DNA from: a virus
IMG/VR virus record: IMGVR_UViG_3300045988_006413
Reading direction: 5' to 3' (one strand)
DNA: 40,798 nucleotides
The position numbers were made by a program, and so were the translations under genes. Below the pieces are notes generated by a model. That model did not search any database and had not been told where the DNA came from. It saw nothing but the letters and a program-made list of their open reading frames with translations. Shown piece after piece: positions 12,250-39,526 of the stretch. Positions within the stretch are counted from its first letter, which is position 1, and each line of letters begins with the position of its first letter.

Positions 12250-13374
12250 ATGAAATGCAAAAAGGAGATACCAGAGGGCGCGTCCTATTGCCCGTGGTGC
12301 GGAAAGAAACAGGTGCAGGGGCACCGTGGGAAATCGCGTGGAAATGGGCAGGGGTACGCCTATCAGCGGGGAAAAACATGGACGGCCCGCTGGACAGTCG
12401 CCTGCTACCTTGATGAAAACGAAAAGATGCACCAGAAAGTAAAAACGAAGGGCGGCTTCGCATCCAAGCGTGCCGCCCTACAATACGCCGCAAATCCACC
12501 GGAGAAAGAAAAATGCTCTCCAACGGTGCGGGAATATTACAAAACCTATCTGCGTGGGGATTATCAATCGCTGTCATCCAACCGCCAGATCGCCGCAGAC
12601 GCAGCATTTGAACGGTTAAAAGAGATTGCCGACTGTGAGATCGACGCGCTAACTATTCGGCAGCTGCAGGACGTCGTAGACCGCAACGCGAGCACATACT
12701 ATACACGACGTGATATGAAAACGGTGCTGTCACACTGCTACAACCTTGCAATCGCAGAAAAACAAACCACTGTGAACCTCTCAAAATATATCAAACTGCC
12801 AATGCTCGAGGAGAAAACACCGGAGCCGTTCACGGACGATGAAGTTCTGAAGCTATGGAAAACATATCCGCAGGATCATTTTATTGGGTTCATCCTCACG
12901 ATGATCTACACAGGCATGATGCCAGGAGAGCTTCAAAGTCTCAAAAAGGATATGATTGACTTCGAGAAAAATGAGATCGTCGGCGGCGGTATTAAAACGC
13001 AAAAGCGAAAAGATACGCCTATGGTATTCCCGGACTTCCTCGCGCCCGTCCTGAAGGAACTATGCGAGGAAAGCAACTCGCGCGTTGGGAAGGTTTGCTG
13101 CATCAACAAGGACACTTTCTATGCGCGGTACTATGAATGTCTCGAGCTTGCGGGTGTCCGGCGGCTCACTCCGTATTCGTGCAGACACACCACCGCAACC
13201 GCACTGGCCTCGAAAAATATTGATCCATTCACTATCAAGGAGGTCATGCGGCACAGCAAAATCACCACGACGCAGAAGTATGTTCATCCAAATATGCGAG
13301 GCATGGTCGATGCGGTCAACCAAATTCCATCTTCTGATGTTCAATCAGCGCCAGACCCGAAAGTAACTCCGTAA
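12250..13374 (+). CDS. int: Tyrosine site-specific integrase with N-terminal zinc ribbon
   Basis: MKCKKEIPEGASYCPWCG N-terminus. Catalytic-domain pattern ..TPYSCRHTTATALA...HSKITTTQKYVH (R, H-x-x-R, Y). Adjacent to the tRNA fragment. Confidence 0.85.
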   Translation: MKCKKEIPEGASYCPWCGKKQVQGHRGKSRGNGQGYAYQRGKTWTARWTVACYLDENEKMHQKVKTKGGFASKRAALQYAANPPEKEKCSPTVREYYKTYLRGDYQSLSSNRQIAADAAFERLKEIADCEIDALTIRQLQDVVDRNASTYYTRRDMKTVLSHCYNLAIAEKQTTVNLSKYIKLPMLEEKTPEPFTDDEVLKLWKTYPQDHFIGFILTMIYTGMMPGELQSLKKDMIDFEKNEIVGGGIKTQKRKDTPMVFPDFLAPVLKELCEESNSRVGKVCCINKDTFYARYYECLELAGVRRLTPYSCRHTTATALASKNIDPFTIKEVMRHSKITTTQKYVHPNMRGMVDAVNQIPSSDVQSAPDPKVTP

Positions 13375-13418
13375 GTAACAAAATCGAAAATGTGTAGTAT
13401 TTTCAAAGGTTCCAAATA

Positions 13419-13480
13419 CCCTGCTAAGGGAGTAGTCGTCTAAAAAGCGAGCGAGAGTTCGAATCTCTCCTTCCGCGCCA
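13419..13480 (+). other. 3' portion of a tRNA-Ser(GCT) gene (candidate attP core)
   Basis: Anticodon loop CTGCTAA with 3' stem GGGAG, a long variable arm, T arm GAGAG-TTCGAAT-CTCTC, acceptor 3' strand CTTCCGC, discriminator G and CCA. No matching 5' acceptor or D arm upstream. Confidence 0.75.
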
Positions 13481-13635: not shown

Positions 13636-13962
13636 TCAGACGTTCCGCACCTTCCGAAGCACTGAATCGTATGCACGGTGGTTGACAAGCGACAGGGTTT
13701 CCATAAGCTCATCAATGATCGGCCAGATTTGCGCCGGGTCTTTTCCCGCAATACTTCGCAAAAAAACGCTATCCCCATACTCGTTAATCGTTTCGGATGC
13801 GGGCGGCGTAGCGGAGTACCGGCGTTCAACCGGCGGCTCCGCCTTGTGCCCCATGCGGTCTTGAATGGTGTAAAGATTTGCGAGCTTGGCATAGTTCGGA
13901 TAACTGGATTCTTCATATTCCAGCCGCGCAATTTCCTTGCGGATTTCAAGCGCATCCAGCAT
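13636..13962 (-). CDS. Cargo gene H: hypothetical helical protein, 108 aa
   Basis: ORF track entry. SD AAGGGGGG. No recognisable motif. Confidence 0.6.
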   Translation of the reverse strand: MLDALEIRKEIARLEYEESSYPNYAKLANLYTIQDRMGHKAEPPVERRYSATPPASETINEYGDSVFLRSIAGKDPAQIWPIIDELMETLSLVNHRAYDSVLRKVRNV

Positions 13963-13975
13963 GGGAGTGCCCCCC

Positions 13976-14353
13976 TTATGCCCGATCGATCTGCTCCATG
14001 CAGTGACGGATAGCGTCGCGGGTTGCGTCGCTGTCCGCGTCGCGCATCATGTCCTCGAGCTGCTCATGCATTCGCTCGCGGGCGTCGGCACGACTATAAC
14101 GCCCCAGAGAATCCCGGCGGCGTCCACGGTAGGAGCTTCCGCGATTATACGTCCCTCGGATGTTTGCATCCCAATCGGCGTCCCGGCTATAACCGGATTC
14201 GTCGAGCATTTCAATTTTGTCGATGTTTTTGATCGTGTCGGTCAACTTGTGGACGATCTCGAGATCGCCAGCACCAAGCTCAGGCTTCCTTGCGATTTCC
14301 TCAAGCTCTCCGCAGAGCGTCGCCCGCAAGTCCTCCATAGCTCTCTTACTCAT
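13976..14353 (-). CDS. Cargo gene G: hypothetical charged protein, 125 aa
   Basis: Start at MSKRAMEDL with SD AAAGGAG. Arg/Ser/Tyr-rich middle (SYRGRRRDSLGRYSR) between helical ends. Confidence 0.6.
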   Translation of the reverse strand: MSKRAMEDLRATLCGELEEIARKPELGAGDLEIVHKLTDTIKNIDKIEMLDESGYSRDADWDANIRGTYNRGSSYRGRRRDSLGRYSRADARERMHEQLEDMMRDADSDATRDAIRHCMEQIDRA

Positions 14354-14366
14354 GTTCATGCTCCTT

Positions 14367-14789
14367 TCACGCCACGCGTTCGACAATCATATTGCTATTC
14401 GCAAAATTGATCGCCTGTGTGCTGATATTTTTTGCGGAAACCGTAAGGCAGCAGCCGCGCGGCACCTCTACAAATGCCGAAACAAAAATGTTGAAATAGT
14501 TCCCGACTGCAGCAGGCGTGACAACGGCGGTCGCGCCGGTAATCGGTTCACCATTGATCGTCAGCGCGGCAGAGATCGCTTCCACCGTGCCACCGGTCGG
14601 AATGGCAATGTTCGCGCCAAAGGCCACGCGGAATCGCGCCTTGCACTGGTTCGTAAGGCCGCGAAGCGTTACGATGCCCGCTCCGGCGCGATGGACGATG
14701 CACCCACCGCTCGCGGCGGGTGTTTCCGTCAACGGCACATTCTGGCCAGCCGCTACGGTCACGATGTTGGAATTGGTATATTCGGCCAT
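14367..14789 (-). CDS. Cargo gene F: beta-rich protein with C1q/TNF-like (BclA C-terminal-type) pattern, 140 aa
   Basis: ARFRVAFGANIAIPTGGTVEAISAALTINGEPITGATAVV...NIFVSAFVEVPRGCCLTVSAKN resembles jelly-roll BclA-C/C1q domains by eye. Confidence 0.55.
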   Translation of the reverse strand: MAEYTNSNIVTVAAGQNVPLTETPAASGGCIVHRAGAGIVTLRGLTNQCKARFRVAFGANIAIPTGGTVEAISAALTINGEPITGATAVVTPAAVGNYFNIFVSAFVEVPRGCCLTVSAKNISTQAINFANSNMIVERVA

Positions 14790-14811
14790 AAAATCAACCC
14801 TCTCTTTGATA

Positions 14812-14845
14812 GATATAAAATGCGGCGGAGCGATTGCCCCGCCGC
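14812..14845 (-). terminator. Hairpin plus U-tract between cargo genes E and F
   Basis: Minus strand reads GCGGCGG-ggcaatcgct-CCGCCGC then ATTTTAT. A second hairpin lies at 14875..14894 (ttttcgtga/tcacgaaaa). Confidence 0.5.
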
Positions 14846-14913
14846 TGCTGTGAGTATCGACACGGAGCCGATCATTTTCGTGAGGTCACGAAAAAGCTCA
14901 ATTTGTGGATTTG

Positions 14914-15675
14914 TTAGGCGCAGGCACCGCAGACATACTGCGAACCATTACACCCGGCGAACTGATACGGTGCGGGAACCGCAAACGACGGAACCGGACG
15001 CGGGTTGTAATAGGCGAACTGGCCGCTCATGTATGCCTTGAGTGCTTCACTCTGCGCAGACTGAGACGCCGCCAGCCGCAACCCCTGATTCTCGTTTTCG
15101 AGATCGCGCATCTTGCTCTGCGTCAGGAAGTCAAGAATGGCTCGGCTGTTGCTGTTCTGGTTGTCGATGATGTCCCGCGTGGCGTTCTGGACGGTGTTGC
15201 GCGTGTCGCACGCCTGCGAAGCCATGTCGTACCGCACCTGTGCGATTGCTTCCCGGTTCTCGCAGCAGCAGTTCTGAGACTGCATCTGCATCTGGAAAAG
15301 CTGCTGCATCAGCGCGGCTTGCTGGTTCGCGCGGGATAGCTCCGCCGTCTGGAATCCGCTGTTGACCGCCTGCGTGACGCCCGCAAATCCGTTCAGGACG
15401 CTGGTGTTCATCCCATAGAAGCCGTCGCACAGGCCGTTGTTGACGCCGTCAAGCTTGCGCTCAATATTGGCGAAATCGGATGCAAGGATGTATCCATCCG
15501 TCGCACCGCCGCCATTGTTGTTGCCCCAGCCATTGCCGCCCCAGCCGCAGAAGATCGCGAGGAACAGGATGATAAACCACCATCCGCCATCGCCGCCGAA
15601 GCCGCCCCAGCCGTTGCCGCCCATGCCAGTAGGTGCTACCGGCATAGTCATAGTCGTACCATCGGTAAGGCTCAT
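14914..15675 (-). CDS. Cargo gene E: Gly/Trp-rich single-pass membrane protein with Q-rich coiled coil and Cys motifs, 253 aa
   Basis: GGNGWGGFGGDGGWWFIILFLAIFCGWGGNGWGNNNGGG, then a Q-rich helix, NCCCENRE and C-terminal CNGSQYVCGACA. SD AAGGAG. Confidence 0.65.
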   Translation of the reverse strand: MSLTDGTTMTMPVAPTGMGGNGWGGFGGDGGWWFIILFLAIFCGWGGNGWGNNNGGGATDGYILASDFANIERKLDGVNNGLCDGFYGMNTSVLNGFAGVTQAVNSGFQTAELSRANQQAALMQQLFQMQMQSQNCCCENREAIAQVRYDMASQACDTRNTVQNATRDIIDNQNSNSRAILDFLTQSKMRDLENENQGLRLAASQSAQSEALKAYMSGQFAYYNPRPVPSFAVPAPYQFAGCNGSQYVCGACA

Positions 15676-15691
15676 TTTGTCGTACTCCTTG

Positions 15692-15727
15692 AAGAAAATA
15701 TATTATCAACCGTGGCCACGGATTGAT
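15692..15727 (-). terminator. Hairpin/attenuator between cargo genes D and E
   Basis: Minus strand reads ATCAATCCGTGGCCACGGTTGAT then AATATATTTTCTTC, immediately after the stop of D. Confidence 0.45.
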
Positions 15728-15954
15728 TATTGCAAAAGACCCTGAAACTGCCGCGCAACGGCCTGAAGCTGGTTTAACTGCTGCTGCGTGAGCTTGCCGG
15801 ATTGCATCATTTTTTCAACCTCGGCTTTCGGGTCACCATGAAAGTTTTGCTTGAATTGCTGGAATTGCTGCATCATTCTCTGAAACTGCCCCATCTGGCC
15901 GGGCATTTGCGGCGCTCTGCCGCCGCCAAGCGCGTTAAACAGTGGGTTCGGCAT
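15727..15954 (-). CDS. Cargo gene D: glutamine-rich small protein, 75 aa
   Basis: 18 of 75 residues are Q by my count (..QFQRMMQQFQQFKQNF..TQQQLNQLQ..). SD GGAGGAA. Confidence 0.6.
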   Translation of the reverse strand: MPNPLFNALGGGRAPQMPGQMGQFQRMMQQFQQFKQNFHGDPKAEVEKMMQSGKLTQQQLNQLQAVARQFQGLLQ

Positions 15955-16393
15955 TGTGGTGTTCCTCCTTCTTGTTCTCCGCGCCAGCAGCCGCCAGCGC
16001 GTTCACACGCGCTTCCATCGCTTCAAACTCTCTTCGGGTGACAAATTCCCCGCTGGCCGGTATGATCGGCTGTGCTGGTGTCCTCGCGCCCGTGCGCTCC
16101 GTGTAATCCAGAACCCTCATGGACGGAACGCCGGACGCGTCCACGCTCTTGATATAAATGCACGGGTTCTCGCTATCCCACAGTGGAACCGTGTTCCCAG
16201 CCGCAACGAGGTAGCTCTTTGCGCCCGCTTCACCCTGTACCCAAATCATGCTCTGGGCAGGCTGCGGCATTTGCGCCATAGGCTGGGGCGGCTGCTGCGG
16301 TTGATACTGTTGGCGAAGCTGCATGAGCTGGTCTTGCATCGGCGGCTGATAAAATGGTTGGTAGCTCATCGGCGGTTGGTACTGTCCATACAT
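15935..16393 (-). CDS. Cargo gene C: protein with Q/P-rich N-terminal region and a globular C-terminal part, 152 aa
   Basis: MYGQYQPPMSYQPFYQPPMQDQLMQLRQQYQPQQPPQPMAQMPQPAQ, then IWVQGEAGAKSYLVAAGNTVPLWD... Confidence 0.6.
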   Translation of the reverse strand: MYGQYQPPMSYQPFYQPPMQDQLMQLRQQYQPQQPPQPMAQMPQPAQSMIWVQGEAGAKSYLVAAGNTVPLWDSENPCIYIKSVDASGVPSMRVLDYTERTGARTPAQPIIPASGEFVTRREFEAMEARVNALAAAGAENKKEEHHNAEPTV

Positions 16394-16776
16394 TCAGATT
16401 CGTTCCTTTCCCAAAAATAAAGCGGTGTTTGGCTTCCGGAGTTCCATGTGTCAAACCAATCTCCATCCCTGACGCAGACCACATGGGTTGCAAGCGCAAG
16501 AATGTATGTACCGATCGGATGGTCACGCGCGAACTCCGCAACTGTGTATGTGTCCGGGTTGGAGCTTGGTACGCCATGCCGGGCATAGCCAAGCTGGTTC
16601 AGGTACGCTCCCCAGACAGCGTTTGCGGAGGGCATATCGCCAACCTCAAACCCATGAAGCGCAAGCGCAACATATACCTCATCCCACGATTTCCCGGTCG
16701 CCTTGCAGATCGCCCGAACAGGGCAATCCCCAACCTGACGCCGCGCGGGGTTTGGATTGTAAAAAGAAAAACCCAT
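16366..16776 (-). CDS. Cargo gene B: Cys-His-Asp (papain/transglutaminase-like) candidate enzyme, 136 aa
   Basis: GDCPVRAICKATG ... ALATHVVCVRDGDWFDTWNS. ATG at 16776 is preferred over the track GTG at 16785 because of SD spacing. Confidence 0.55.
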   Translation of the reverse strand: MGFSFYNPNPARRQVGDCPVRAICKATGKSWDEVYVALALHGFEVGDMPSANAVWGAYLNQLGYARHGVPSSNPDTYTVAEFARDHPIGTYILALATHVVCVRDGDWFDTWNSGSQTPLYFWERNESECMDSTNRR

Positions 16777-16812
16777 ACCGGACACCTCTCAACGTGTCCA
16801 GTATGGGTTATT

Positions 16813-16864
16813 TTTCGGGTTTATGTGCCGCGATTGTGCATCATTTTCGCCCGTTTCGGGTTTA
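16813..16864. repeat. 11-bp direct repeat tttcgggttta (16813..16823 and 16854..16864) upstream of cargo gene B
   Basis: Identical 11-mers 41 bp apart in the 76-nt A-B intergenic region. The hairpin ggacac/gtgtcc (16780..16799) overlaps the SD of B. Confidence 0.7.
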
Positions 16865-17110
16865 ACTATATAGTCGGCTAGATGTCTTTCTCATTCGGTC
16901 GAGAATTCCGGGGAGCCGCCGCTGCACGGTAGCTCGCCCAAGATACAACTCAGATGCAACGTCAATCTGAGGGCGCTTATCGATATAATAGAGCTGTGCA
17001 ATGCGCTCATTTTCCTGCCCGAGGTTTGCTTGGGAAATAACGGTCTCCATTTCTCCACGCATCAGGCCGGATAATTCAGGCGGTAGATTATACCGCGCCT
17101 GCGGCGACAT
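16862..17110 (-). CDS. Cargo gene A: sigma-70 region-4 / YlxM-like HTH protein, about 82 aa
   Basis: ENERIAQLYYIDKRPQIDVASELYLGRATVQRRLPGILDRM. ATG at 17110 (TTG at 17113) lies 4 nt after the endolysin stop, with SD AAGGGGTGA. Confidence 0.6.
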   Translation of the reverse strand: MSPQARYNLPPELSGLMRGEMETVISQANLGQENERIAQLYYIDKRPQIDVASELYLGRATVQRRLPGILDRMRKTSSRLYS

Positions 17111-17114
17111 CAAA

Positions 17115-17789
17115 TCACCCCTTCTTGGTCATCAACACCGGAACGTTCCCCTGATTGGAAACGGAAAGACCGAGCGCCCCGGCCACGTCGCGGATTTTCA
17201 CATAGTTGGTTCCGTTTTTTAGGATACGTTCAACCTCGACGGGTTTTCCGTCAACAATCATCTTGCACTTGCTTACCATTTCAATCCTCTCCTTTACCAT
17301 TTCCCGGAATTTCTTAATACCCTCCGGATCGTCCACCCAGTATTTCGGGCAGAGCTTCCCGGTCACGTCGTAGTGCCGGATGATATGATCGACCGGGATG
17401 TTATACTTCTCGCAGAGCCTTGCGGCGAGGTCTGCAGCATTGGCGATAGTCTTTGCCGTTGCCATGACATTCCCGTCGCGCTTCGCGTCGCACATCTCGA
17501 TCCCGATGGAATTGTAGTTCCGGCAGAATGGGTGTGTATAGTGATACGCGCCACAGTGGAAGGCTACATAGTCCTCCGGCACGGAGATCGTGATGGAATC
17601 ATCATCCACAAAAAAGTGGGCGCTTGCCACAGGATTGAGCGGCTTCTGGAAGTACTTGCCGTTGCTGGTGTCGGAATCCCCGTCGTTGGCCGTGTAGTGC
17701 ATGACAATCCACTCAACGTCCCCGCCGCGTTTCGTGCCGTAGTTGGCCCGATGGGCCAGCATCTTTTTAGTCGGTACCATCACTATCAC
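17115..17789 (-). CDS. Endolysin: N-acetylmuramoyl-L-alanine amidase (Amidase_2/PGRP) with C-terminal wall-binding-like domain
   Basis: WIVMHYTANDGD...HFFVDD...IGIEMC...HIIRHYDVTGKLCPK. C-terminal MIVDGKPVEVERILKNGTNYVKIRDVAGALG resembles a copper-amine-oxidase-N-like domain. Confidence 0.85.
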   Translation of the reverse strand: MIVMVPTKKMLAHRANYGTKRGGDVEWIVMHYTANDGDSDTSNGKYFQKPLNPVASAHFFVDDDSITISVPEDYVAFHCGAYHYTHPFCRNYNSIGIEMCDAKRDGNVMATAKTIANAADLAARLCEKYNIPVDHIIRHYDVTGKLCPKYWVDDPEGIKKFREMVKERIEMVSKCKMIVDGKPVEVERILKNGTNYVKIRDVAGALGLSVSNQGNVPVLMTKKG

Positions 17790-17988
17790 CCTTCGCGTCC
17801 ATCGCGTCCTGCGCCTTCTGGCTCTGCGTCCCGAAATAGAACGTGATGACCATCAGGAAGATCGTCAGGAAATCCTTGCCCGTGATGTCGCCCCGGAGCG
17901 CCAGCACCGTGAACACCACCGTCAGCAGCAGCGTCACCAGCGACTTCACGCTCAGCAGATTCGACAGCCTTTTCATAATTTTGTCCAT
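17767..17988 (-). CDS. Holin, 73 aa, two TM segments
   Basis: Start at MDKIMKRLS with SD GAAGGGAG. Sequence LVTLLLTVVFTVLAL...FLTIFLMVITFYFG with a charged C-terminus. Immediately upstream of the endolysin. Confidence 0.7.
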   Translation of the reverse strand: MDKIMKRLSNLLSVKSLVTLLLTVVFTVLALRGDITGKDFLTIFLMVITFYFGTQSQKAQDAMDAKGDSDGTD

Positions 17989-18005
17989 GTTATGTACTCC
18001 CTTCA

Positions 18006-18191
18006 TTATACTTTTTTCGTCGCTTTGTTCCAAATTTTCATAGCACCGCGTTTTGTGTATTTTGCCTCATGGTTTTTCGCGGCAATGTAGCCACAATGTG
18101 CGCATTGGTACACCAAGAGATCTTTATTGTCTCCGACATATTTCAGTTCTGGAAAATGCCCGCATAATGGGCACGCGTTCAGTTCGTTCAT
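18006..18191 (-). CDS. Lar-family-like zinc-ribbon protein, 61 aa
   Basis: LNACPLCGH...CAHCG...AMKIWNKA matches the Lar restriction-alleviation family layout (CPxCG ... CxxCG ... A..WN). Confidence 0.5.
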   Translation of the reverse strand: MNELNACPLCGHFPELKYVGDNKDLLVYQCAHCGYIAAKNHEAKYTKRGAMKIWNKATKKV

Positions 18192-18207
18192 ATCGTTTTT
18201 ACTCCTT

Positions 18208-18465
18208 TCAGTCTTTCAGCACGATTTCCAAAAAACGTGCCTTTTCCTCTGCCGTATATGTTTCCGGCAAACTCTCGATGTACTTGATTGCGTATTTACT
18301 TCTGTTCTCATTCTTTGCCTTCCAGAGGTAAAACATCCCAATCGCCGTTGCAAATCCGATGACTGCCAACGTGACCTCCACACTCAGCACACCGAGCACA
18401 TTCAGGATAATGCAAACGACGCTTGCCGCCGCGCTGCCAATCAGCAGCTTCTTCGACGTCTCCAT
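18208..18465 (-). CDS. Two-TM membrane protein, 85 aa (second holin or lysis accessory)
   Basis: Start at METSKKLL (TGATG overlap with the XhlA stop). Sequence LIGSAAASVVCIILNVLGVL...LAVIGFATAIGMFYLW. Confidence 0.55.
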   Translation of the reverse strand: METSKKLLIGSAAASVVCIILNVLGVLSVEVTLAVIGFATAIGMFYLWKAKNENRSKYAIKYIESLPETYTAEEKARFLEIVLKD

Positions 18466-18761
18466 CACACGATCCCCGCATGAGCCAGCGCGAAGCCGAC
18501 CAGCGCCCCAACAATGGCCGTCACGACCGCCTTGACCAGCGTCTCCCATTTCCCGCCCGGAATGGCCTTGAGGCTCTTCACGTCATCCTTGATCTCGCTG
18601 ACATTGGCCTCGATCGTCTCCTGCTTCGTCGCCAGCACCTCTACCGAGGTCGCCAGCTGATGCAGCGCCCGGTTGTCCTCCTCTAAATCATTGATGCGGT
18701 GCGTGTTGCTCTTGGATCGCTGGTCGATCTCCACGATCTTTGCCTGAATTCCATCATCCAT
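18465..18761 (-). CDS. xhlA: XhlA-family (hemolysin XhlA-like) lysis-associated protein
   Basis: N-terminal coiled coil (IDQRSKSNTHRINDLEEDNRALHQL) plus a C-terminal TM (AVVTAIVGALVGFALA). Confidence 0.6.
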   Translation of the reverse strand: MDDGIQAKIVEIDQRSKSNTHRINDLEEDNRALHQLATSVEVLATKQETIEANVSEIKDDVKSLKAIPGGKWETLVKAVVTAIVGALVGFALAHAGIV

Positions 18762-36032: not shown

Positions 36033-36138
36033 ATACGCCCTCCTTTCTTCGCTGGCGTTTGATGAATTTCTCCATATCCCGCTTTAAGTACGGGCTGTTT
36101 GTCTTATCAATGATCGCCTGCGCTTCTTCAATCGTCAT
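35962..36138 (-). CDS. Possible 58-aa ORF bridging the methyltransferase and TerS genes
   Basis: MTIEEAQAIIDKTNSPYLKRDMEKFIKRQRRKEG... covers the 36033..36127 gap. It overlaps TerS by 71 nt and has a weak SD. Confidence 0.3.
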   Translation of the reverse strand: MTIEEAQAIIDKTNSPYLKRDMEKFIKRQRRKEGVYGKAEKGDRSKAVRESMRPAMHA

Positions 36139-36805
36139 GGAGCAATACCGCCTTTTCTCCTGTGAATTTCTCCCACCGATCAATAATGACATCGGCATAC
36201 TTCGGATCAAACTCCATGCAATATGCGTGTCTCCCGTTCTGCTCTGCTGCCATGATCGTTGTGCCAGAACCAGCAAACAGGTCAAGAACATTCTCGCCCG
36301 GTTTACTCGAGCACTGCATCTGATAGTCAAACAGCTTAATCGGTTTCATGGTCGGATGCTCTGCCGATCTCACCGGCTTATCAAAATTGAGAACAGTGGT
36401 CTGCTTTCGGTTTTTGAAGAAGTAATGCTTATGGCCTTCCGTCCATCCATACAAGCACGGCTCGTGCTCGTCTTCTTCAATCTCGCTCTCGCCATAGAGA
36501 CAAGGTTCATGCTTCCATTGGTAATCCTGCCGCCCCATGACCATGCTGTTTTTTACCCAAATCAAGCACTGCCTTACTCGGAGCATTGCGTCTCTGCACG
36601 CCCCACGGAAGTTATACCCTTCGCTATCGGCGTGCCAGATGTAGAACGGAGCACCCGGCTTCATTACCATTGCCGCATTTGAGAATGCATCTGTGAGGAA
36701 CCGTCTAAAAGCTGAATCCTCCATGTTATCGTTTATAATCTTGCCAGCGGTTCCCTTGTAGTCCACATTGTAGGGAGGGTCAGTGAGCAGCAAGTCCATC
36801 TGCAC
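36128..36805 (-). CDS. N6-adenine/N4-cytosine DNA methyltransferase domain (DPPY type), 3' part of a split ParB-methyltransferase gene
   Basis: LLLTDPPYNVDY catalytic motif near the N-terminus and LDLFAGSGTT SAM-binding motif near the C-terminus. In the -1 frame relative to 36733..37320. Confidence 0.8.
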   Translation of the reverse strand: MQMDLLLTDPPYNVDYKGTAGKIINDNMEDSAFRRFLTDAFSNAAMVMKPGAPFYIWHADSEGYNFRGACRDAMLRVRQCLIWVKNSMVMGRQDYQWKHEPCLYGESEIEEDEHEPCLYGWTEGHKHYFFKNRKQTTVLNFDKPVRSAEHPTMKPIKLFDYQMQCSSKPGENVLDLFAGSGTTIMAAEQNGRHAYCMEFDPKYADVIIDRWEKFTGEKAVLLHDD

Positions 36806-37320
36806 CCCCCTACGAGCTTTTGTACGTCCGTCAAGGACGTACTATCTCCGCACATCAAGCGATGGTTCCCGAGTTGGTACACATCACCAATCTTGCTTTT
36901 TGGCTCCGCAGGAAGAACAGGATTATAGTCATCCTCAATAACAGAGTGGTTTAGCTCGTCGCGAAGTCCCCAGTCAAAGTCAAAAGCCGACAGGTCAAGT
37001 CCAGACAGCTCCTCGGCCAGCAAATCAAAATCCCAATCGCTCTCGTTGCTCTTGTTGTCCACCAGCCGGAGGGCGTTCACTTGTTCCGGCGTCAAATCGT
37101 CCATACTGACACACGGCGCCTCGTCCATGCCGAGCTTCTTTGCAGCCAGCGCGCGGCAGTGGCCGATGATAATCACATCGTCGCGGTCTACCACAATCGG
37201 CTGCACAAATCCATACTGCCGGATGCTCTCTGCCACATTAGCGATTTGCTTTTCGTCGTGCTTTTTCGCGTTCCCCGGATATGGGGTGAGTTCAGATAAT
37301 TTCCTGTTTTGTACGTTCAT
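36733..37320 (-). CDS. ParB N-terminal (ParB/Srx) domain protein, 5' part of a split ParB-methyltransferase gene
   Basis: Start at MNVQNRKLSELTPYPGNAKKH with SD GGAAGGAG. Sequence ..IVVDRDDVIIIGHCRALAAKKLG.. The last 19 codons (CRWTCCSLTL...) look out of frame. Confidence 0.75.
   Translation of the reverse strand: MNVQNRKLSELTPYPGNAKKHDEKQIANVAESIRQYGFVQPIVVDRDDVIIIGHCRALAAKKLGMDEAPCVSMDDLTPEQVNALRLVDNKSNESDWDFDLLAEELSGLDLSAFDFDWGLRDELNHSVIEDDYNPVLPAEPKSKIGDVYQLGNHRLMCGDSTSLTDVQKLVGGCRWTCCSLTLPTMWTTREPLARL
36805..36810 (-). other. G6 homopolymer at the ParB/methyltransferase frame junction
   Basis: Minus strand reads GTA GGG GGG TGC AGA TGG. One extra G, or a -1 slip, gives ..LVGGVQMDLLLTDPPY.. 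in one frame. Confidence 0.85.
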
Positions 37321-37442
37321 TGTTTCTCCTTCCTCTTCCTTCTCCTTGGAGCTACCCGCCAAACTCCAAATATCCCGCATAAAGCACACCAAATACAAAA
37401 AGGAGGTTCCGCAGATTCCGCTGCGTAGCCGGTGAAGGAAGA

Positions 37443-37473
37443 AACCGTAGGGGGTCGGCAAGCCCCTACGGTT
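37443..37473 (-). terminator. Strong intrinsic terminator between the early-right genes and the late operon
   Basis: 11-bp perfect stem AACCGTAGGGG / CCCCTACGGTT with an 8-9 nt loop, followed on the minus strand by TCTTCCTT. Confidence 0.7.
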
Positions 37474-37495
37474 ACATTATCGCATATATTCTTCT

Positions 37496-37517
37496 CAAAA
37501 TGCCCACAATAGTGGGT
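37496..37517 (-). terminator. Short hairpin containing the shared 16-nt motif, directly after the XRE gene stop
   Basis: Minus strand reads CCCAC-TATT-GTGGG then CATTTTG. Motif gcccacaatagtgggt at 37502..37517. Confidence 0.5.
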
Positions 37518-37744
37518 TAAAGGAAATTTTGCCGCCCCAAAAGGTAGTCCGTTGACACTTCGAAGAAATCCGCGATCTGCGCGAGGGATGAGGCTGTCGG
37601 TTCGCGGTCTCCGCGTTCGTACTGGCTTATGACGTTTTTGGACATCCCGCAGCACTCGCTTAGTACCTTTCGTGAGATTCGGCGTCTCTCCCGAAGCCTT
37701 TTAAGCCTCGCAGGGAATACCGTGTTAATTTGTTGCTGCTCCAT
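37517..37744 (-). CDS. Small XRE-family HTH protein, 75 aa (Aca-like position)
   Basis: Start at MEQQQINT with SD GGAGGAAG. Sequence RLKRLRERRRISRKVLSECCGMSKNVISQYERG. Confidence 0.75.
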   Translation of the reverse strand: MEQQQINTVFPARLKRLRERRRISRKVLSECCGMSKNVISQYERGDREPTASSLAQIADFFEVSTDYLLGRQNFL

Positions 37745-37883
37745 CGACTTCCTCCACATCATCATCAAGCGAATCAAGCATTCGTTGTGCTCTTATGTGC
37801 AGGCCCTTTGCCTTGATGTAAACCGCGATCCCCAGCGCAGCCCACTCAATCAACACCAAGATATTTAGAATATCGATAATCAA
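37725..37883 (-). CDS. Small membrane protein, 52 aa (TTG start)
   Basis: TTG after GGAGGAG (7-nt spacer), with TTGA overlap with the upstream stop. Sequence IIDILNILVLIEWAALGIAVYI. The track ORF extends to 37919. Confidence 0.45.
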   Translation of the reverse strand: MIIDILNILVLIEWAALGIAVYIKAKGLHIRAQRMLDSLDDDVEEVDGAATN

Positions 37884-38011
37884 GTTATCTCTCCTCCGCT
37901 CTTCAAACATTCCTCGCATGGCAGCGGCCCGTTCTCATCCGAATCCAGAAACCGTTCATAGAGATCGCACCACCACGCGATGCAGAATTCACAGCTATTA
38001 CAGTTCTTCAT
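37880..38011 (-). CDS. Cys-rich micro-ORF, 43 aa (below ORF-track cutoff)
   Basis: Translated codon by codon: MKNCNSCEFCIAWWCDLYERFLDSDENGPLPCEECLKSGGEIT. Weak SD. Confidence 0.4.
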   Translation of the reverse strand: MKNCNSCEFCIAWWCDLYERFLDSDENGPLPCEECLKSGGEIT

Positions 38012-38258
38012 CGCCGTCACCATCTAATATTTCTTTGATTTTCTCTGCGTTGCCCTTGATAATGTCCATAACAATATCGCTTTGGATATGGTTGGCAAAC
38101 ACAGCTTTACAACTGGGCCCTGCGTTATAATACGTGGTAAAGGTTGTACCATCCGCCGCCATTGCAACGGCGCAAAGTGACGTAGGATGTATTTCCGGCA
38201 GTGTGCCCAGCGCTTCTTCCAGCCATGCGGAATATTCCTGCTTTGTAATATCTTCCAT
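37998..38258 (-). CDS. Hypothetical acidic protein, 86 aa
   Basis: ORF track entry. Its start overlaps the dUTPase stop by one base. Confidence 0.55.
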   Translation of the reverse strand: MEDITKQEYSAWLEEALGTLPEIHPTSLCAVAMAADGTTFTTYYNAGPSCKAVFANHIQSDIVMDIIKGNAEKIKEILDGDGDEEL

Positions 38259-38668
38259 TATCTCCCCGTGCTCCCGAACCCGCCGGTTCCTCTCTCGGTG
38301 TCTTCCAGAGAATCCACCACTTCCAACTCCGGCAGCAGACAGGGCAGGATCACAAGCTGAGAGATCTTATCGCCCTTCCGCACTCTATATGGCTTGTCCG
38401 AGTGGTTGTAGAGCTTGACCATGATGCTCCCTGTGTAACCAACGTCGATCACGCCCTCGCTGGTAATTCCGTACTTGACGTTCAGGCCGCTCTTGCTCTT
38501 GAGAAAACCGACCGTGTTTTTTGGAAGCTGGATATGTACCCCTGTATCAAACAATTCGCTGCTTATTGGGTAGATATAAACATCATCCGCCGAATAGAGG
38601 TCAAGACCCGCGTCGAACTCATGCGCCCGTGTCGGCATGATTGCCCACGGTTCCAAAACAATTTTCAT
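38258..38668 (-). CDS. dut: dUTP diphosphatase
   Basis: AHEFDAGLDLYS, GFLKSKSGL, GVIDVGYTG and C-terminal RGTGGFGSTG motifs. Confidence 0.9.
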   Translation of the reverse strand: MKIVLEPWAIMPTRAHEFDAGLDLYSADDVYIYPISSELFDTGVHIQLPKNTVGFLKSKSGLNVKYGITSEGVIDVGYTGSIMVKLYNHSDKPYRVRKGDKISQLVILPCLLPELEVVDSLEDTERGTGGFGSTGR

Positions 38669-39008
38669 AGCAGTTTTTCAATTCCTTTCTGACCGTATAG
38701 AGCGTCGTCTCCAGCTCCTTTACCTTCTCTTTCCAATTTCTATAATCTTCGATTTCCACTTCGGAGGTCGTCAATGGCATCGCGCACTTGTTGCACTTGT
38801 AATAGTGCCGCTGGATGACGACTTCTTCCCTCACTTTACACCTTGACGTTTGGTAGAATACCCCGCCACATTTGCAACAGATCATTTTTTTCTCCTTTTC
38901 ACTCGCCACTTTTACAGCCATAAAAAGCCGCACATATGCTTCTCTCCGCTCGTCCGTATTGATCGGAAGATACGGAGCCGTCAGCTTCCATGCCTCCATG
39001 TACGTCAT
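38619..39008 (-). CDS. Hypothetical zinc-ribbon/coiled-coil protein, 129 aa
   Basis: Start at MTYMEAWK (SD AGGAGGG, ATGA overlap). CCKCGG...CNKC. Overlaps the dut start by 50 nt. Confidence 0.5.
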   Translation of the reverse strand: MTYMEAWKLTAPYLPINTDERREAYVRLFMAVKVASEKEKKMICCKCGGVFYQTSRCKVREEVVIQRHYYKCNKCAMPLTTSEVEIEDYRNWKEKVKELETTLYTVRKELKNCYENCFGTVGNHADTGA

Positions 39009-39526
39009 CCCTGTCCCTCCTTGCACGGCTCCATTTCCGGGCACTCGTCCATAAACGCGCACGGTGGAGCCATCAGGCCGCGAAATTCCGGGCAATGATC
39101 GAGCACAAGCGTCCGCATCCTCTTGGCAATCTCCTGTGTTGCCGGGTCTGCCTTGCGGCACAGGCGTTTGTTGGCGACCGTCAACAGTTCTTCCGCGTTC
39201 ATGTACCAGATCATATCCACCGGCGCGTCCTGCCGCGCTGCGTTCCTGTCATAGTCGCTCTGGCGGTCGTTACGCTGGCTTTTGATGAACGGGACGGAAT
39301 GGACGTGCCGCGCAAGGTGTGTGCTGACGTAATACGGCACGTTGTGTAGATAAAACGCGAAGTTCAGCGTCCGGATTGGACTGTGCTTCGCCCGGAGCAT
39401 CTTGTGCTTCCATTCCATGTCCGGTGCTTTTCCCGAGTGCTTCCCAATCGTGACCAGCGCGCAGCTCTTGGCAAACATCCAATCTTCTTCCCCCGGCCAC
39501 TTCAAAAGTGTGATTTCAGTGTTCAT
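39005..39526 (-). CDS. ThyX-like (flavin-dependent thymidylate synthase fold) protein, divergent and short (173 aa)
   Basis: KHSPIRTLNFAFYLHNVPYYVSTHLARHVHSVPFIKSQRN parallels ThyX HETPFEH..F.F...P.FV..Q..RHR..S...SQRY. IWYMNAEELL parallels FWTVNARSLM. RHR is replaced by RHV. Confidence 0.5.
   Translation of the reverse strand: MNTEITLLKWPGEEDWMFAKSCALVTIGKHSGKAPDMEWKHKMLRAKHSPIRTLNFAFYLHNVPYYVSTHLARHVHSVPFIKSQRNDRQSDYDRNAARQDAPVDMIWYMNAEELLTVANKRLCRKADPATQEIAKRMRTLVLDHCPEFRGLMAPPCAFMDECPEMEPCKEGQG

What the first reader, a model, noticed from the sequence alone, without database searches (positions are those of the whole stretch)
13636..17113. Eight-gene cargo module of unknown function between the lysis cassette and attP
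This is the classic moron or lysogenic-conversion slot of temperate Firmicutes phages: downstream of the endolysin and upstream of the attachment site. It holds eight same-strand genes, none of which I can match to a standard phage function.
- A (16862..17110): a sigma-70 region-4/YlxM-like HTH whose start is coupled to the endolysin stop.
- B (16366..16776): a Cys-His-Asp pattern (GDCPVRA ... THVV ... DTWNS).
- C (15935..16393): about 45 N-terminal residues made almost only of Q/P/M/Y.
- D (15727..15954): 18 Q in 75 aa.
- E (14914..15675): GW-rich glycine tracts around one hydrophobic helix, a Q-rich coiled coil, CCC and a C-terminal CNGSQYVCGAC.
- F (14367..14789): a C1q/BclA-C-like beta pattern.
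- G and H: charged helical proteins.

A dedicated DNA-binding protein, a putative enzyme, several low-complexity assembly-prone proteins and a jelly-roll-like protein together look like a self-contained system. It could build a surface, envelope or spore-associated structure, or be an uncharacterised conversion or defence function. It does not look like a set of random morons.
Basis: partly seen in the sequence, partly recalled or inferred. Interest (0 to 1): 0.72.

Follow-up and report, generated by a model that had tools for sequence, protein, structure and literature searches.

The report
Conserved unknown-function gut-phage gene module
The eight genes are real and travel together as one separately regulated block, but the block also occurs in lytic phages and partly in crAss-like and Bacteroides phages, so it looks like an uncharacterised phage function rather than lysogen "cargo".

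Summary
All eight minus-strand ORFs exist at the stated coordinates, between an Amidase_2 endolysin and a tRNA-derived attP next to a tyrosine integrase. F is predicted with confidence as a TNF/C1q jelly-roll closest to the exosporium proteins ExsFA/BxpB and the BclA C-terminal domain. B is a minimal papain-like Cys-His-Asp enzyme. E is a bitopic membrane protein with a Cys-rich helical domain.

B-C-D-E-F-G(-H) is collinear in more than 100 phage and prophage loci, down to 33-37% identity for E. It is retained where tail, lysin and integrase genes show no detectable similarity. A small HTH gene, phased direct repeats, a terminator hairpin and a -10-like box precede it.

The moron, lysogenic-conversion and spore readings do not hold up. 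The full block is in the cultured Butyrivibrio phage Ceridwen, which has no integrase near the block and has only been seen growing lytically. In some phages the block sits inside or before the lysis cassette. E plus a DUF7841 protein occur in crAss-like and Bacteroides phages, where E carries recoded TAG codons.

My best guess, at moderate confidence, is a late, envelope-directed accessory assembly of the lytic cycle. No database assigns a function to any of B-H.

The parts
16862..17113 (-). A: 82-83 aa helix-turn-helix protein resembling sigma-70 region 4. It is the last gene of the lysis operon, and its start abuts the endolysin stop.
   Evidence: ORF. Weak hits to Sigma70_r4 (0.04), TIGR02937 (3e-4), phage_rinA (0.02) and phrog_36 'transcriptional regulator' (1.8e-4). 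By hhalign it is homologous to the HTH (A') that precedes variant modules (94%).
16824..16843 (-). Two GCACA direct repeats (TGATGCACAATCGCGGCACA) between A and the hairpin. They are a candidate binding site for A.
   Evidence: The same repeat type follows A-type HTH genes in relatives and in Ceridwen. A'-type loci carry TGACAG repeats instead, also with 11-nt phasing.
16770..16809 (-). A 16-bp perfect hairpin followed by a U run. It contains B's ribosome-binding site and ATG, so it could act as a terminator/attenuator and as a translation block.
   Evidence: flags it as terminator-like. Folding gives MFE -38.3 kcal/mol for the 116-nt region, z = -5.2. Thirteen sequence variants in relatives all fold at -26 to -31 kcal/mol, with an A-U to G-C swap at the stem base.
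16366..16776 (-). B: 136 aa minimal papain-like Cys-His-Asp enzyme, either a peptidase/isopeptidase or transglutaminase-like.
   Evidence: phrog_3754 at 2e-30. Invariant N7, N9, D17, C18, H98, D109 and W111. AF2 pLDDT 90, with Cys18 at the N-terminus of a helix and His98/Asp109 on adjacent strands. The only Foldseek hits are weak and mostly papain-fold proteases: Josephin-2 (E 0.05, TM 0.43), TssM, USP5, Lpro, UfSP2 and M48.
15935..16393 (-). C: 152 aa. It has a Q/P/Y/M-rich low-complexity N-terminus, a small beta-rich domain, and a C-terminal amphipathic helix with a K/E tail. It overlaps the end of B.
   Evidence: phrog_21718 at 2e-34. Alignment. Universal partner of E: iterated HMM hits in 132 loci, and C~C' by hhalign at 100%. 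No PDB or Pfam hit.
15727..15954 (-). D: 75 aa Q/M-rich helical protein.
   Evidence: phrog_22984 at 3e-21. Collinear in 73/80 loci. Replaced by a non-homologous D' in variant modules.
14914..15675 (-). E: 253 aa bitopic membrane protein. It has a conserved N-tail, one short hydrophobic helix flanked by G/W/N, an N/Q/S/T-rich helical domain with an invariant CCC and further Cys residues, a Pro-rich RPxPxPAY stretch, and a Cys-rich C-terminus. It is the universal core of the module.
   Evidence: phrog_16490 at 7e-45. Alignment. The family has 1515 clusters at 50% identity, all about 190-300 aa, with no fusions among the best 150. Homologues occur in crAss-like cr52_1 gp23 and in Bacteroides phage C3_41T2LP (hhalign 99.8% and 99.3%). 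No PDB sequence hit.
14822..14845 (-). GC-rich hairpin with a T-rich tail in the 124-nt E-F spacer.
   Evidence: The E/F junction varies in length and is an insertion hot spot in relatives.
14367..14789 (-). F: 140 aa stand-alone TNF/C1q-type jelly-roll with no signal peptide. It is the most conserved protein of the block.
   Evidence: phrog_20016 at 1e-56. The family has 7831 clusters at 90% identity. AF2 pLDDT 89, pTM 0.84. Foldseek PDB top hits are ExsFA/BxpB (TM 0.75-0.79, E 1e-7), the BclA and F-BclA C-terminal domains, then TNF-family ligands. BFVD top hits are small uncharacterised proteins from gut phages (TM up to 0.89).
13976..14359 (-). G: about 125-127 aa charged helical protein with a central R/S/Y/D-rich segment (SYRGRRRDSLGRYSR).
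   Evidence: phrog_28802 at 2e-10. Alignment. No PDB or Pfam hit. Variant modules carry an R/D/Y-rich DUF7841 protein in its place.
13636..13962 (-). H: 108 aa helical protein with a conserved YGDSxF...W..DELM motif. It is the last gene of the block.
   Evidence: Present in 53/80 viral loci and in Ceridwen. No family hit in any library.
13369..13477 (+). tRNA-like remnant, the attP core. It bounds the block on the integrase side.
   Evidence: Rfam tRNA 28.4 bits, E 0.007. A T-arm and a CCA-type 3' end are visible. The integrase ends at 13374.

Best explanation
A-H is one functional, co-inherited accessory operon that belongs to the phage's own late (lytic-cycle) programme. It is not host-benefiting cargo.

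Shown:
- The block is a conserved unit.
- Its core is the membrane protein E plus C.
- It is bounded by hairpins and preceded by a dedicated HTH gene with phased repeats.
- F has a TNF/C1q/ExsFA-like fold, a fold that is trimeric in the matched structures.
- B is papain-like.

Inferred mechanism:
1. A is made as the last product of the lysis operon. It binds the direct repeats and turns on, or lets RNA polymerase read through the hairpin into, B-H.
2. E inserts into the cytoplasmic membrane, N-terminus in and C-terminus out. It displays an elongated helical ectodomain, probably a trimeric coiled coil, that ends in a Pro-rich, Cys-rich tip.
3. F, and in variant modules another Cys-rich beta protein, forms a trimeric knob that partners with E, possibly through the vicinal cysteines.
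4. B processes or cross-links the Q-rich proteins C and D.
5. G and H, or the DUF7841 proteins, act as acidic helper or chaperone-like factors.
6. The assembly acts on the host envelope at or just after lysis: timing or completion of envelope disruption, egress, or protection of progeny from debris.
For: Co-inheritance:
- Collinearity in 73/80 IMG/VR loci and about 36/52 genome loci, down to 37% identity for E.
- The same order in Dulem virus 33 and in the cultured phage Ceridwen.
- B-G stay at 40-80% identity where tail, lysin and integrase genes give no hit.

Link to the late/lysis programme:
- The block directly follows the endolysin in most loci.
- It lies between XhlA and the endolysin in L108 and after holin plus peptidase in bajarodcaudo virus 5.
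- It follows the receptor-binding protein in Dulem virus 36.
- It sits next to a LysB/FtsL-like gene in crAss cr52_1.
- A's start abuts the endolysin stop.
- crAss E homologues contain in-frame TAG codons. In crAss-like phages such recoding is confined to late structural and lysis genes (10.1101/2021.08.26.457843).

Not lysogeny- or spore-specific:
- Ceridwen has no integrase annotated in the 16.5 kb around the block, and its authors found no excisionase and saw lytic growth only.
- E and DUF7841 occur in crAss-like and Bacteroides phages.

Regulation:
- HTH-type-specific repeats, then a hairpin, then a TRTG-n-GAnAAT box, conserved across divergent loci.
- Terminator-like hairpins are enriched upstream of B: 31/87 loci against 15/336 random windows.
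- The window hairpin is very stable and conserved.

Structure:
- F model and fold matches.
- B model and invariant triad.
- E's hydrophobic segment is conserved in sequence between Firmicutes and Bacteroides phages.
Against: - There is no expression, proteomic or genetic data for any member. Timing and localisation are inferred.
- The phage already has a complete canonical lysis set: XhlA-like, holin-like and amidase.
- The block is insulated from the lysis operon by a terminator and carries a -35-independent, sigmaA-like -10 box. That would also allow expression from a prophage.
- In Bacteroides phage C3_41T2LP the E cluster follows recombination genes, not lysis genes.
- F has no signal peptide. 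An E-ectodomain/F complex could therefore form only after membrane permeabilisation.
- The E-F interaction, E's trimeric state and E's topology were not modelled.
- No component resembles any known lysis protein.
Confidence: 0.4

Rival explanations
1. Prophage-expressed moron operon. B-H would be transcribed from its own sigmaA-type promoter in the lysogen. It would place a membrane-anchored fibre/knob on the cell envelope, giving superinfection exclusion, receptor masking or altered surface properties.
For: - The block sits at the attP-proximal end of the late region.
- It is flanked by terminator-like hairpins and, in relatives, has an extended -10-like box that needs no -35.
- E is a bitopic membrane protein like many Sie proteins.
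- The block recombines independently of neighbouring modules.
Against: - The block is conserved intact in Ceridwen, which has no integrase near it and is known only from lytic growth.
- Its core is in crAss-like and Bacteroides phages, with late-type TAG recoding.
- In L108 and Dulem virus 36 it lies inside or before the lysis genes.
- Six to eight genes are far more than any known exclusion function needs.
- There are no PADLOC hits.
- True morons with strong TTGACA-N17-TATAAT promoters are inserted between A and B in some relatives, and they look quite different.
Confidence: 0.2
2. Virion-associated accessory fibre. E would be a trimeric coiled-coil shaft and F its TNF-like knob, like a split version of the Sf6 tail-needle-with-knob, PRD1 P5 or BclA. 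The fibre would be cross-linked through cysteines and would decorate the particle for adhesion or membrane penetration. B, C, D, G and H would be maturation or chaperone factors.
For: - F's fold matches fibre or spike knobs such as BclA, the phi812 spike knob and tail-fibre tips.
- E homologues in crAss-like genomes were annotated by their depositors as 'spike protein/glycoprotein' or 'outer capsid protein/viral fiber'.
- E and F have the N/Q/S/T/A-rich, low-charge composition typical of fibres.
- F is the most conserved protein of the block.
- The cluster follows the receptor-binding protein in Dulem virus 36.
- A neighbour in the Bacteroides cluster hits phrog_473 'virion structural protein' at 1.4e-8.
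- Acidic helper proteins commonly accompany fibre genes (general knowledge).
Against: - E carries a highly conserved, strongly hydrophobic membrane-type segment.
- In most loci the block is separated from the structural genes by the whole lysis cassette and a terminator.
- It has its own regulator.
- Tail modules upstream look complete.
- No virion proteomics exist for any carrier.
Confidence: 0.2
3. Counter-defence or host-takeover module. B would be a deconjugating or processing peptidase, for example against ubiquitin-like or other protein-modification defences. The other proteins would be decoys or membrane-directed inhibitors of host systems.
For: - In Tsamsa-like Bacillus phages the B family occurs alone, next to a Ser/Thr kinase and an Ocr-like anti-restriction gene. 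It also occurs in GBK2 and in Lak megaphages.
- B's only structural neighbours include deubiquitinase-type papain folds.
- A PolyVal metallopeptidase ends the Bacteroides cluster.
- UBA-like small ORFs ('X') precede B in many loci. The UBA resemblance rests on my reading of the motif only.
Against: - The structural similarity is not significant (best E 0.05, TM 0.43).
- B is absent from the variant and Bacteroides modules, so it is not the core.
- The late, lysis-adjacent position is atypical for takeover genes.
- No hit to any known anti-defence family was obtained.
Confidence: 0.1
4. Spore- or exosporium-directed module. F (ExsFA/BclA-like), the Cys-rich E, the Q-rich C and D, and a transglutaminase-like B would modify the spore surface of a lysogen.
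For: - F's best structural matches are the exosporium proteins ExsFA/BxpB and BclA.
- Cys-rich and Q-rich low-complexity proteins and a Cys-His-Asp enzyme recall coat/exosporium assembly. This is an analogy from memory.
Against: - The complete block is in a phage of non-sporulating Butyrivibrio fibrisolvens.
- The core is in Bacteroides and crAss-like phages.
- Hosts in the genome scan include non-sporulating Subdoligranulum.
- F lacks the N-terminal exosporium-targeting region and any collagen-like repeats.
- No conserved sporulation-sigma promoter was seen (by inspection).
Confidence: 0.03

Closest known systems
ExsFA/BxpB and the BclA C-terminal domain (Bacillus exosporium; TNF/C1q-like jelly-roll trimers)
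   Same: F's predicted fold matches ExsFA/BxpB with TM 0.75-0.79 and E about 1e-7 (BclA C-terminal domain TM 0.64-0.69, E about 1e-6). The proteins are of similar size, 135-150 aa.
   Different: - Sequence identity is only about 10-15%.
- Pfam, NCBIfam and PDB sequence searches give no hit.
- F has no collagen-like region and no N-terminal exosporium-targeting segment.
- F is encoded in phages whose hosts include non-sporeformers.
Viral fibre-plus-knob attachment proteins (Sf6 tail needle with TNF-like knob, PRD1 P5, adenovirus fibre, reovirus sigma1)
   Same: An elongated helical protein (E) sits next to a TNF-like knob protein (F). Depositors labelled E homologues 'viral fiber/spike'.
   Different: - Shaft and knob would be separate polypeptides.
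- E has a conserved membrane-spanning segment and a Cys-rich tail.
- The genes lie outside the structural module and have their own regulator.
- Virion association is untested.
Phage morons / lysogenic-conversion cassettes (Hendrix-type autonomous transcription units next to attP)
   Same: The position next to attP in temperate members, flanking terminator-like hairpins, and a promoter-like box of its own.
   Different: - It is a 6-8 gene co-evolving block, not a single variable gene.
- It is kept in phages without an integrase nearby and in crAss-like phages.
- It is more conserved than the core genes around it.
Lambda-type late switch (regulator gene, then promoter, then promoter-proximal terminator, then late genes)
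   Same: In the window the layout is a small DNA-binding protein gene, then phased repeats, then a -10-like box, then a strong hairpin with a U run at the very 5' end of the operon.
   Different: - A is an 82-aa sigma-region-4-like HTH, unrelated to Q proteins.
- In most relatives the hairpin precedes the -10 box, so it reads more simply as a terminator followed by a promoter.
- No functional data exist.
Clan CA (papain-like) cysteine peptidases, deubiquitinases and transglutaminases
   Same: B has an invariant Cys at the N-terminus of a helix, His and Asp on adjacent strands, and an upstream invariant Asn that could form the oxyanion hole. The best fold neighbours include several such enzymes.
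   Different: - B is only about 127-136 aa.
- No family-level sequence hit was found.
- Foldseek E values are 0.05 or worse.
- Activity and substrate are unknown.

Membership tests
TNF/C1q-like jelly-roll superfamily (F) | Compact 10-strand beta-sandwich with TNF/C1q topology | tested here: met
   AF2 model with pLDDT 89 and pTM 0.84, ten strands. Foldseek probability 1.00 and TM 0.65-0.79 to ExsFA, BxpB, BclA C-terminal domain, EDA and 4-1BBL.
TNF/C1q-like jelly-roll superfamily (F) | Homotrimeric assembly | not tested
   No multimer prediction was available. Trimerisation is inferred from the fold class.
BclA / ExsFA exosporium proteins (F) | N-terminal exosporium-targeting segment and (for BclA) collagen-like GXX repeats; detectable sequence-family membership | tested here: not met
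   F starts directly with the beta domain and has no repeats. Pfam, NCBIfam and PDB profile searches give no hit.
BclA / ExsFA exosporium proteins (F) | Occurrence in spore-forming hosts with sporulation-specific expression | tested here: not met
   F is in the Butyrivibrio phage Ceridwen. Expression itself is not testable with these tools.
Papain-like (clan CA) cysteine hydrolase (B) | Catalytic Cys at the N-terminus of a helix, with His and Asp/Asn on the following beta strands, all invariant | tested here: met
   C18 opens helix 18-27. H98 lies at strand 99-103 and D109 at the end of strand 106-109. All three are invariant in 70 homologues.
Papain-like (clan CA) cysteine hydrolase (B) | Significant fold or sequence similarity to a known member | tested here: inconclusive
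   Best Foldseek hit is Josephin-2, E 0.05 and TM 0.43. Several other weak hits are also papain-fold proteases. No Pfam, NCBIfam or PDB sequence hit.
Moron (autonomous transcription unit in a prophage) | Own promoter and terminator flanking the inserted genes | tested here: met
   Hairpins lie upstream of B and downstream of H. A conserved terminator plus TRTG-n-GAnAAT box is present in relatives. These are consensus-level matches only.
Moron (autonomous transcription unit in a prophage) | Present or absent between genes that are adjacent in closely related phages; dispensable cargo | tested here: not met
   No module-less close relative was seen among the loci examined, and I did not search for one specifically. 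The block persists where neighbouring genes are replaced, and also in phages without a nearby integrase and in crAss-like phages.
Moron (autonomous transcription unit in a prophage) | Expression from the repressed prophage | not testable with these tools
   Needs lysogen transcriptomics.
Sigma-70 region 4 / RinA-type phage regulator (A) | Family-level HMM match above the curated threshold | tested here: inconclusive
   Sigma70_r4 scores 13.9 bits against a cutoff of 24.1. TIGR02937 scores 20.3 against 42.9. phage_rinA scores 15 against 31.9. phrog_36 gives 1.8e-4.
Known anti-phage defence systems | Match to any PADLOC model | tested here: not met
   No hit for A-H at E <= 1.
Holin / spanin / known lysis proteins (E) | Sequence-family match to a holin, antiholin, spanin or XhlA family | tested here: not met
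   E hits only PHROGs of unknown function and no relevant Pfam or NCBIfam family above threshold (only a sub-threshold HAP1_N hit, E 0.019). Canonical holin-like and XhlA-like genes lie upstream.

The most novel reading that the evidence does not exclude
The E-centred module would be a previously unrecognised, widely distributed late function of gut phages. It comprises an HTH regulator, a bitopic Cys-rich coiled-coil membrane protein, a small Cys-bearing beta-sandwich 'knob', an R/D/Y-rich helper, and optionally a peptidase. It is shared across phages of Clostridia and Bacteroidota (including crAss-like phages), and possibly a virus attributed to methanogenic archaea. It would build a membrane-anchored, spike-like assembly that acts in a new way on the host envelope or on released progeny. 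That would be a new class of phage egress or post-lysis machinery, not a lysogenic-conversion trait.
Probability: 0.3. Interest if true: 0.85.

Novelty: categorically new. Interest (0 to 1): 0.64.

Why it matters
- **Prevalence.** The exact E protein of this window is indexed in 575 assembly blocks. The E family has about 1500 clusters at 50% identity, and the F family about 7800 clusters at 90% identity.
- **No assigned function.** Every member is annotated 'unknown function', and none of my literature searches turned up a description of the module.
- **Breadth.** A conserved, separately regulated multi-gene unit that crosses the Firmicutes/Bacteroidota phage divide points to a general step in gut-phage biology that current models of the lytic cycle leave out.
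- **Testability.** Two cultured systems carry it, Butyrivibrio virus Ceridwen on B. fibrisolvens DSM 3071 and Bacteroides phage C3_41T2LP on B. uniformis. The question can therefore be tested directly.
- **Annotation.** The result argues against labelling post-lysin genes in temperate phages as morons by default.

Tried and rejected
**Searches that gave nothing useful**
- Pfam, NCBIfam and PADLOC scans of A-H, and of the Ceridwen, L065 and L108 versions. Only weak HTH hits for A, and DUF7841 for the variant G'.
- PDB profile searches for B, C, E, F, G and H. No meaningful hits.
- Rfam on 13.3-18.2 kb. Only the tRNA remnant.
- Literature searches for DUF7841, phage exosporium genes and crAss annotations. 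No description of the module.

**Ideas tested and dropped**
- F/F', G/G', D/D' and G/H homology by hhalign: not detectable. The two partner sets are therefore treated as non-homologous replacements.
- A sigmaE/sigmaK-type promoter upstream of B: only a weak match by eye, and its -35-like part is not conserved across relatives while the -10-like part lies inside the conserved hairpin.
- A as the phage's general late activator. The only other GCACA-N5-GCACA site (37786-37800) lies inside a small ORF. With 2 sites found against 0.25 expected, it is not convincing.

**Wasted or misspent calls**
- One fold_alignment call used wrong coordinates and is void. It was replaced.

**Limits**
- Structures of C, D, E, G and H were not predicted. 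The cap was two jobs.

Full report
**1.

Eight minus-strand ORFs occupy 13636-17113:

| Gene | Coordinates | Size |
|---|---|---|
| A | 16862-17110/17113 | 82-83 aa |
| B | 16366-16776 | 136 aa |
| C | 15935-16393 | 152 aa |
| D | 15727-15954 | 75 aa |
| E | 14914-15675 | 253 aa |
| F | 14367-14789 | 140 aa |
| G | 13976-14359 | about 125-127 aa |
| H | 13636-13962 | 108 aa |

Independent gene calls on metagenomic contigs that carry the identical E protein give the same set.

- Upstream are tail genes, an XhlA-like 'hemolysin', a holin-like protein and an Amidase_2 endolysin.
- Downstream, on the other strand, is a tyrosine integrase.
- Between the integrase and H lies a tRNA-like remnant at 13369-13477(+). 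Rfam scores it as tRNA at 28.4 bits, and the T-arm and 3' end are visible. This is the attP.

**2. What the individual proteins are**

No curated library assigns a function to B-H. Pfam, NCBIfam and PADLOC are empty apart from weak sigma-70 region 4 / ECF / RinA-type hits for A. PHROGs places B, C, D, E, F and G in six families, all labelled 'unknown function'. Profile searches against PDB sequences found nothing for B, C, E, F, G or H.

Two structure predictions were informative.
- **F.** The model (pLDDT 89, pTM 0.84) is a TNF/C1q-type jelly-roll. Its best PDB matches are the Bacillus exosporium proteins ExsFA/BxpB (TM 0.75-0.79, E about 1e-7), then the BclA and F-BclA C-terminal domains, then TNF ligands. 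In the viral library its closest matches are small, unnamed stand-alone proteins from gut phages (TM up to 0.89).
- **B.** The model (pLDDT 90) has the invariant Cys18 at the N-terminus of a helix and the invariant His98 and Asp109 on neighbouring strands. The only fold neighbours are weak, but many share one kind of fold: Josephin-2, TssM, USP5, FMDV Lpro, UfSP2 and M48 (best E 0.05). I read B as a minimal, divergent papain-like hydrolase or transglutaminase-type enzyme. Its chemistry is unproven.

The other proteins, read from sequence and alignments:
- **E** has a conserved N-tail and one short, very hydrophobic helix embedded in G/W/N-rich sequence. A long N/Q/S/T/A-rich helical region follows, with an invariant CCC and further invariant Cys residues. 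It ends in an RPxPxPAY stretch and a Cys-rich tail.
- **C** has a Q/P/Y/M-rich N-terminus, a small beta domain, and a helix with a K/E tail.
- **D** is a Q/M-rich helical peptide.
- **G and H** are charged helical proteins. G has an R/S/Y/D-rich centre.

**3. The genes form one co-inherited unit**

An IMG/VR scan with E returned at least 587 related stretches. In the best 80, B-C-D-E is collinear in 73 and F-G follows in 70, with E identity from 61 to 100%. Most exceptions are contig ends.

A scan of one genome per species gave 52 loci, mostly in Oscillospiraceae, Ruminococcaceae, Lachnospiraceae and other Clostridia, many of them MAG contigs. HMMs built from the first set find the same order in about 36 of these, down to 37% identity for E. 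Dulem virus 33 has the same order at 42% identity for E.

The block outlasts its neighbours. In many loci B-G are 40-80% identical to the window while the tail, lysin and integrase genes give no hit at all.

**4. It has its own regulatory architecture**

In the window, A's start abuts the endolysin stop. After A come, in order:
1. two GCACA repeats (16824-16843);
2. a CCCGAAAAAT box;
3. a perfect 16-bp hairpin (16770-16809) that contains B's ribosome-binding site and ATG, followed by a U run.

The hairpin region is far more stable than shuffled controls (z = -5.2). Thirteen sequence variants in relatives keep the stem, including an A-U to G-C swap.

A common layout recurs across divergent loci, in both HTH types and in Ceridwen:
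1. the HTH gene;
2. two or three direct repeats with 11-nt phasing;
3. a GC-rich hairpin with a T run;
4. a TRTG-n-GAnAAT box (typically TATGCGAnAAT);
5. the ribosome-binding site and ATG of the first module gene.

The repeats differ with the HTH type: GCACA-type after A, and TGACAG-type after the related but distinct A' (hhalign 94%). That covariation suggests A and A' bind these repeats; no binding data exist.

Terminator-like hairpins occur within 400 nt upstream of B in 31/87 distinct loci, against 15/336 random windows. The block is therefore a separate transcription unit with a dedicated DNA-binding protein. Whether A activates, antiterminates or represses is inference.

**5. The evidence against the 'lysogenic-conversion cargo' reading**

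- **A cultured phage known only from lytic growth has the whole block.** Butyrivibrio virus Ceridwen infects B. fibrisolvens DSM 3071. It carries, in order: lysin, a small TM protein, an A-like HTH, X, B, C, D, E, F, an HNH insert, G and H. No integrase is annotated in the 16.5 kb around the block, its authors found no excisionase, and only lytic growth was observed (PMC7372960). Butyrivibrio does not sporulate (established knowledge).
- **The position relative to the lysin is not fixed.**
  - In a Lachnospiraceae contig (L108) the order is XhlA, A', C, D', E, a small TM protein, F', HNH, a G-like protein, two small genes, then the endolysin.
  - In Dulem virus 36 the annotation shows a 136-aa ORF, a 74-aa ORF, the E homologue and a 127-aa ORF directly after the receptor-binding protein. 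HMMs assign D' and F' in this locus.
  - In bajarodcaudo virus 5 the cluster follows a holin and a peptidase, and is followed by replication genes.
- **There are two partner sets.** One is {B, D, F, G, H}. The other is {D', a Cys-rich 129-145 aa beta-rich protein F', and an R/D/Y-rich DUF7841 protein G'}. C, E and the HTH are common to both.
- **The E family and DUF7841 reach beyond Firmicutes phages.**
  - In crAss-like cr52_1 (Suoliviridae), gp22 is DUF7841-like. gp23 is a full-length E homologue with the same G/W-flanked helix, the CCC motif, the LSASQQAQ...RPCPVPAY stretch and a CGCGY end (hhalign 99.8%).
  - The cultured Bacteroides uniformis phage C3_41T2LP has a small HTH, an HNH gene, E (hhalign 99.3%), a beta-rich protein with a CC motif, a coiled-coil protein, an R/D/Y-rich peptide, a protein that looks DUF7841-like by eye (it matches only phrog_38431, unknown function), and a PolyVal metallopeptidase.
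  - A virus attributed to Methanomassiliicoccales also carries a phrog_16490 protein.
  - The crAss E genes contain in-frame TAG codons. In crAss-like phages such recoding marks late structural and lysis genes (10.1101/2021.08.26.457843).
- **B occurs alone in unrelated phages.** It is found in Tsamsa-like Bacillus phages next to a Ser/Thr kinase and an Ocr-like gene, in Geobacillus GBK2, and in Lak megaphages. B is an accessory part, not the core.

**6. Most likely mechanism**

The following are shown:
- a conserved, separately bounded operon;
- a dedicated HTH with cognate-looking repeats;
- a universally conserved bitopic membrane protein E whose hydrophobic segment is conserved in sequence even between Firmicutes and Bacteroides phages;
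- a TNF-like protein F under strong constraint, about 80% identical where E is about 62-70%;
- a papain-like enzyme B.

The rest of the model is inferred. Each point below adds the evidence or caveat for a step of that model.

- **A as the switch.** A, the last product of the lysis operon, would switch on B-H.
- **E's topology.** E would sit in the cytoplasmic membrane with its N-terminus inside. In the Bacteroides versions the positive charges lie on the N-side, and the ectodomain composition is fibre-like. It would display a helical, probably trimeric, stalk with a Pro- and Cys-rich tip.
- **The knob.** F, or F' in variant modules, would form a trimeric knob that joins E. F, F', the Bacteroides beta-rich protein and E all carry vicinal Cys motifs.
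- **B's substrates.** B would process or cross-link the Q-rich, K-tailed C and D.
- **Helpers.** G and H, or DUF7841 proteins, would act as helpers.
- **Site and timing.** The recurrent linkage to lysis genes and the late-type recoding point to a site of action at the envelope, at or just after lysis. I put this at about 0.4.

The main weaknesses are these:
- No expression or proteomic data exist.
- A complete canonical lysis set is already present.
- The promoter-like box is of a type that could fire in a lysogen.
- F has no signal peptide.
- In C3_41T2LP the cluster is not next to lysis genes.

**7. Rivals**

| Rival | Confidence | Main point for | Main point against |
|---|---|---|---|
| Prophage-expressed surface or exclusion operon | about 0.2 | Fits the attP-proximal position and insulation | Does not fit the lytic-phage and crAss distribution |
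| Virion-associated fibre with knob | about 0.2 | Fits F's fold, depositor labels on E homologues, composition, and a phrog_473 'virion structural protein' hit on a neighbour in the Bacteroides cluster | Conflicts with the conserved membrane segment, the location beyond the lysis cassette, and the dedicated regulator |
| Counter-defence | about 0.1 | B's contexts elsewhere | B is not core |
| Spore or exosporium role | about 0.03 | F's fold matches | Host range |

**8. Comparison with known systems, and novelty**

F is a structural member of the TNF/C1q superfamily, but it fails the defining features of BclA and ExsFA: no targeting region, no collagen repeats, no sequence-family match, and a non-sporulating host. 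B meets the catalytic-geometry criterion for papain-like enzymes, but fold and sequence similarity are not significant. The block meets the 'own promoter and terminator' criterion of a moron. It does not meet the 'dispensable, variably present cargo' criterion on the data in hand.

No known lysis, defence, secretion or structural system has this composition. I did not find the module described in any paper I could search. I therefore class it as an uncharacterised, apparently new kind of phage module. Its existence and breadth are well supported; its function is open.

**9. Verdict**

It is a system, but not lysogen cargo and not spore-related.
- Interest is 0.64. The module is very widespread, crosses phyla, has a distinctive regulatory layout, and can be tested in two cultured phage-host pairs.

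Noticed in passing
window 13369-13477 (+): tRNA-like remnant (Rfam tRNA 28.4 bits, just under the gathering score of 29), with a canonical T-arm and a ...GCGCCA 3' end, directly after the integrase stop. This is the attP core, and it implies integration into a host tRNA gene. ARAGORN finds no complete tRNA in the window.
   Followed up: partly
window 17767-18761 (-): The lysis cassette upstream of the block comprises an XhlA-like 'hemolysin' (18465-18761; phrog_937 at 4e-14), a 113-aa ORF with no family hit (18208-18549), and an 88-aa protein that I read as a two-TM holin (17767-18033; phrog_13256, unknown function) overlapping the endolysin start.
   Followed up: partly
L011, L013, L015, L018, L020, L075, L092, L099 (region between A and B): In these relatives, 1-2 kb of extra genes sit between A and B. 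They are preceded by a terminator and a near-consensus TTGACA-N17-TATAAT promoter. These look like genuine morons inserted into the module, and their promoters differ clearly from the module's own TATGCGAnAAT box.
   Followed up: no
L081 8280-8831; L134 8449-9309; L108 11807-12637; L140 5006-5626: HNH/homing-type endonuclease genes are inserted at different junctions of the module: D/E in Dulem virus 33, F/G in Ceridwen, after F' in L108, and HTH/E in the Bacteroides phage. The gene junctions appear to be insertion hot spots.
   Followed up: no
L137 3576-4499 (crAss-like cr52_1 gp23): The crAss E homologue has two in-frame TAG codons inside Q-rich sequence. They align with Gln-rich positions of the Firmicutes proteins, consistent with TAG-to-Gln recoding of a late gene.
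   Followed up: partly
L136 4971-5366 (Bacillus phage Izhevsk) and Lak megaphages: B-family 'putative peptidase' genes stand alone in Tsamsa-like Bacillus phages, next to a Ser/Thr kinase and an Ocr-like anti-restriction gene. They are also present in the roughly 540-kb Lak phages of Prevotella. This may be an independent early or anti-defence use of the same small papain-like enzyme.
   Followed up: partly
many loci, e.g. L027, L029, L037, L081, L110, L126, L134 5878-6081: A 40-70 aa ORF ('X', e.g. MYERLLACGFTEQMAMDIL...) with a UBA-like three-helix pattern overlaps the start of B in many relatives. It is absent from the window. No family hit was found.
   Followed up: no
window 14914-15675 (E): The exact 253-aa E protein is indexed in 575 blocks of the public assembly collection, mostly on 20-50 kb contigs. 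This phage lineage is very common in gut metagenomes.
   Followed up: no
window 36128-39526 (-): By eye, the early/late boundary region appears to hold a DNA methyltransferase (36128-36805), a ParB-like N-terminal domain protein (36733-37461), a dUTPase-like protein (38258-38668) and a ThyX-like protein (39005-39526). None was checked with tools.
   Followed up: no
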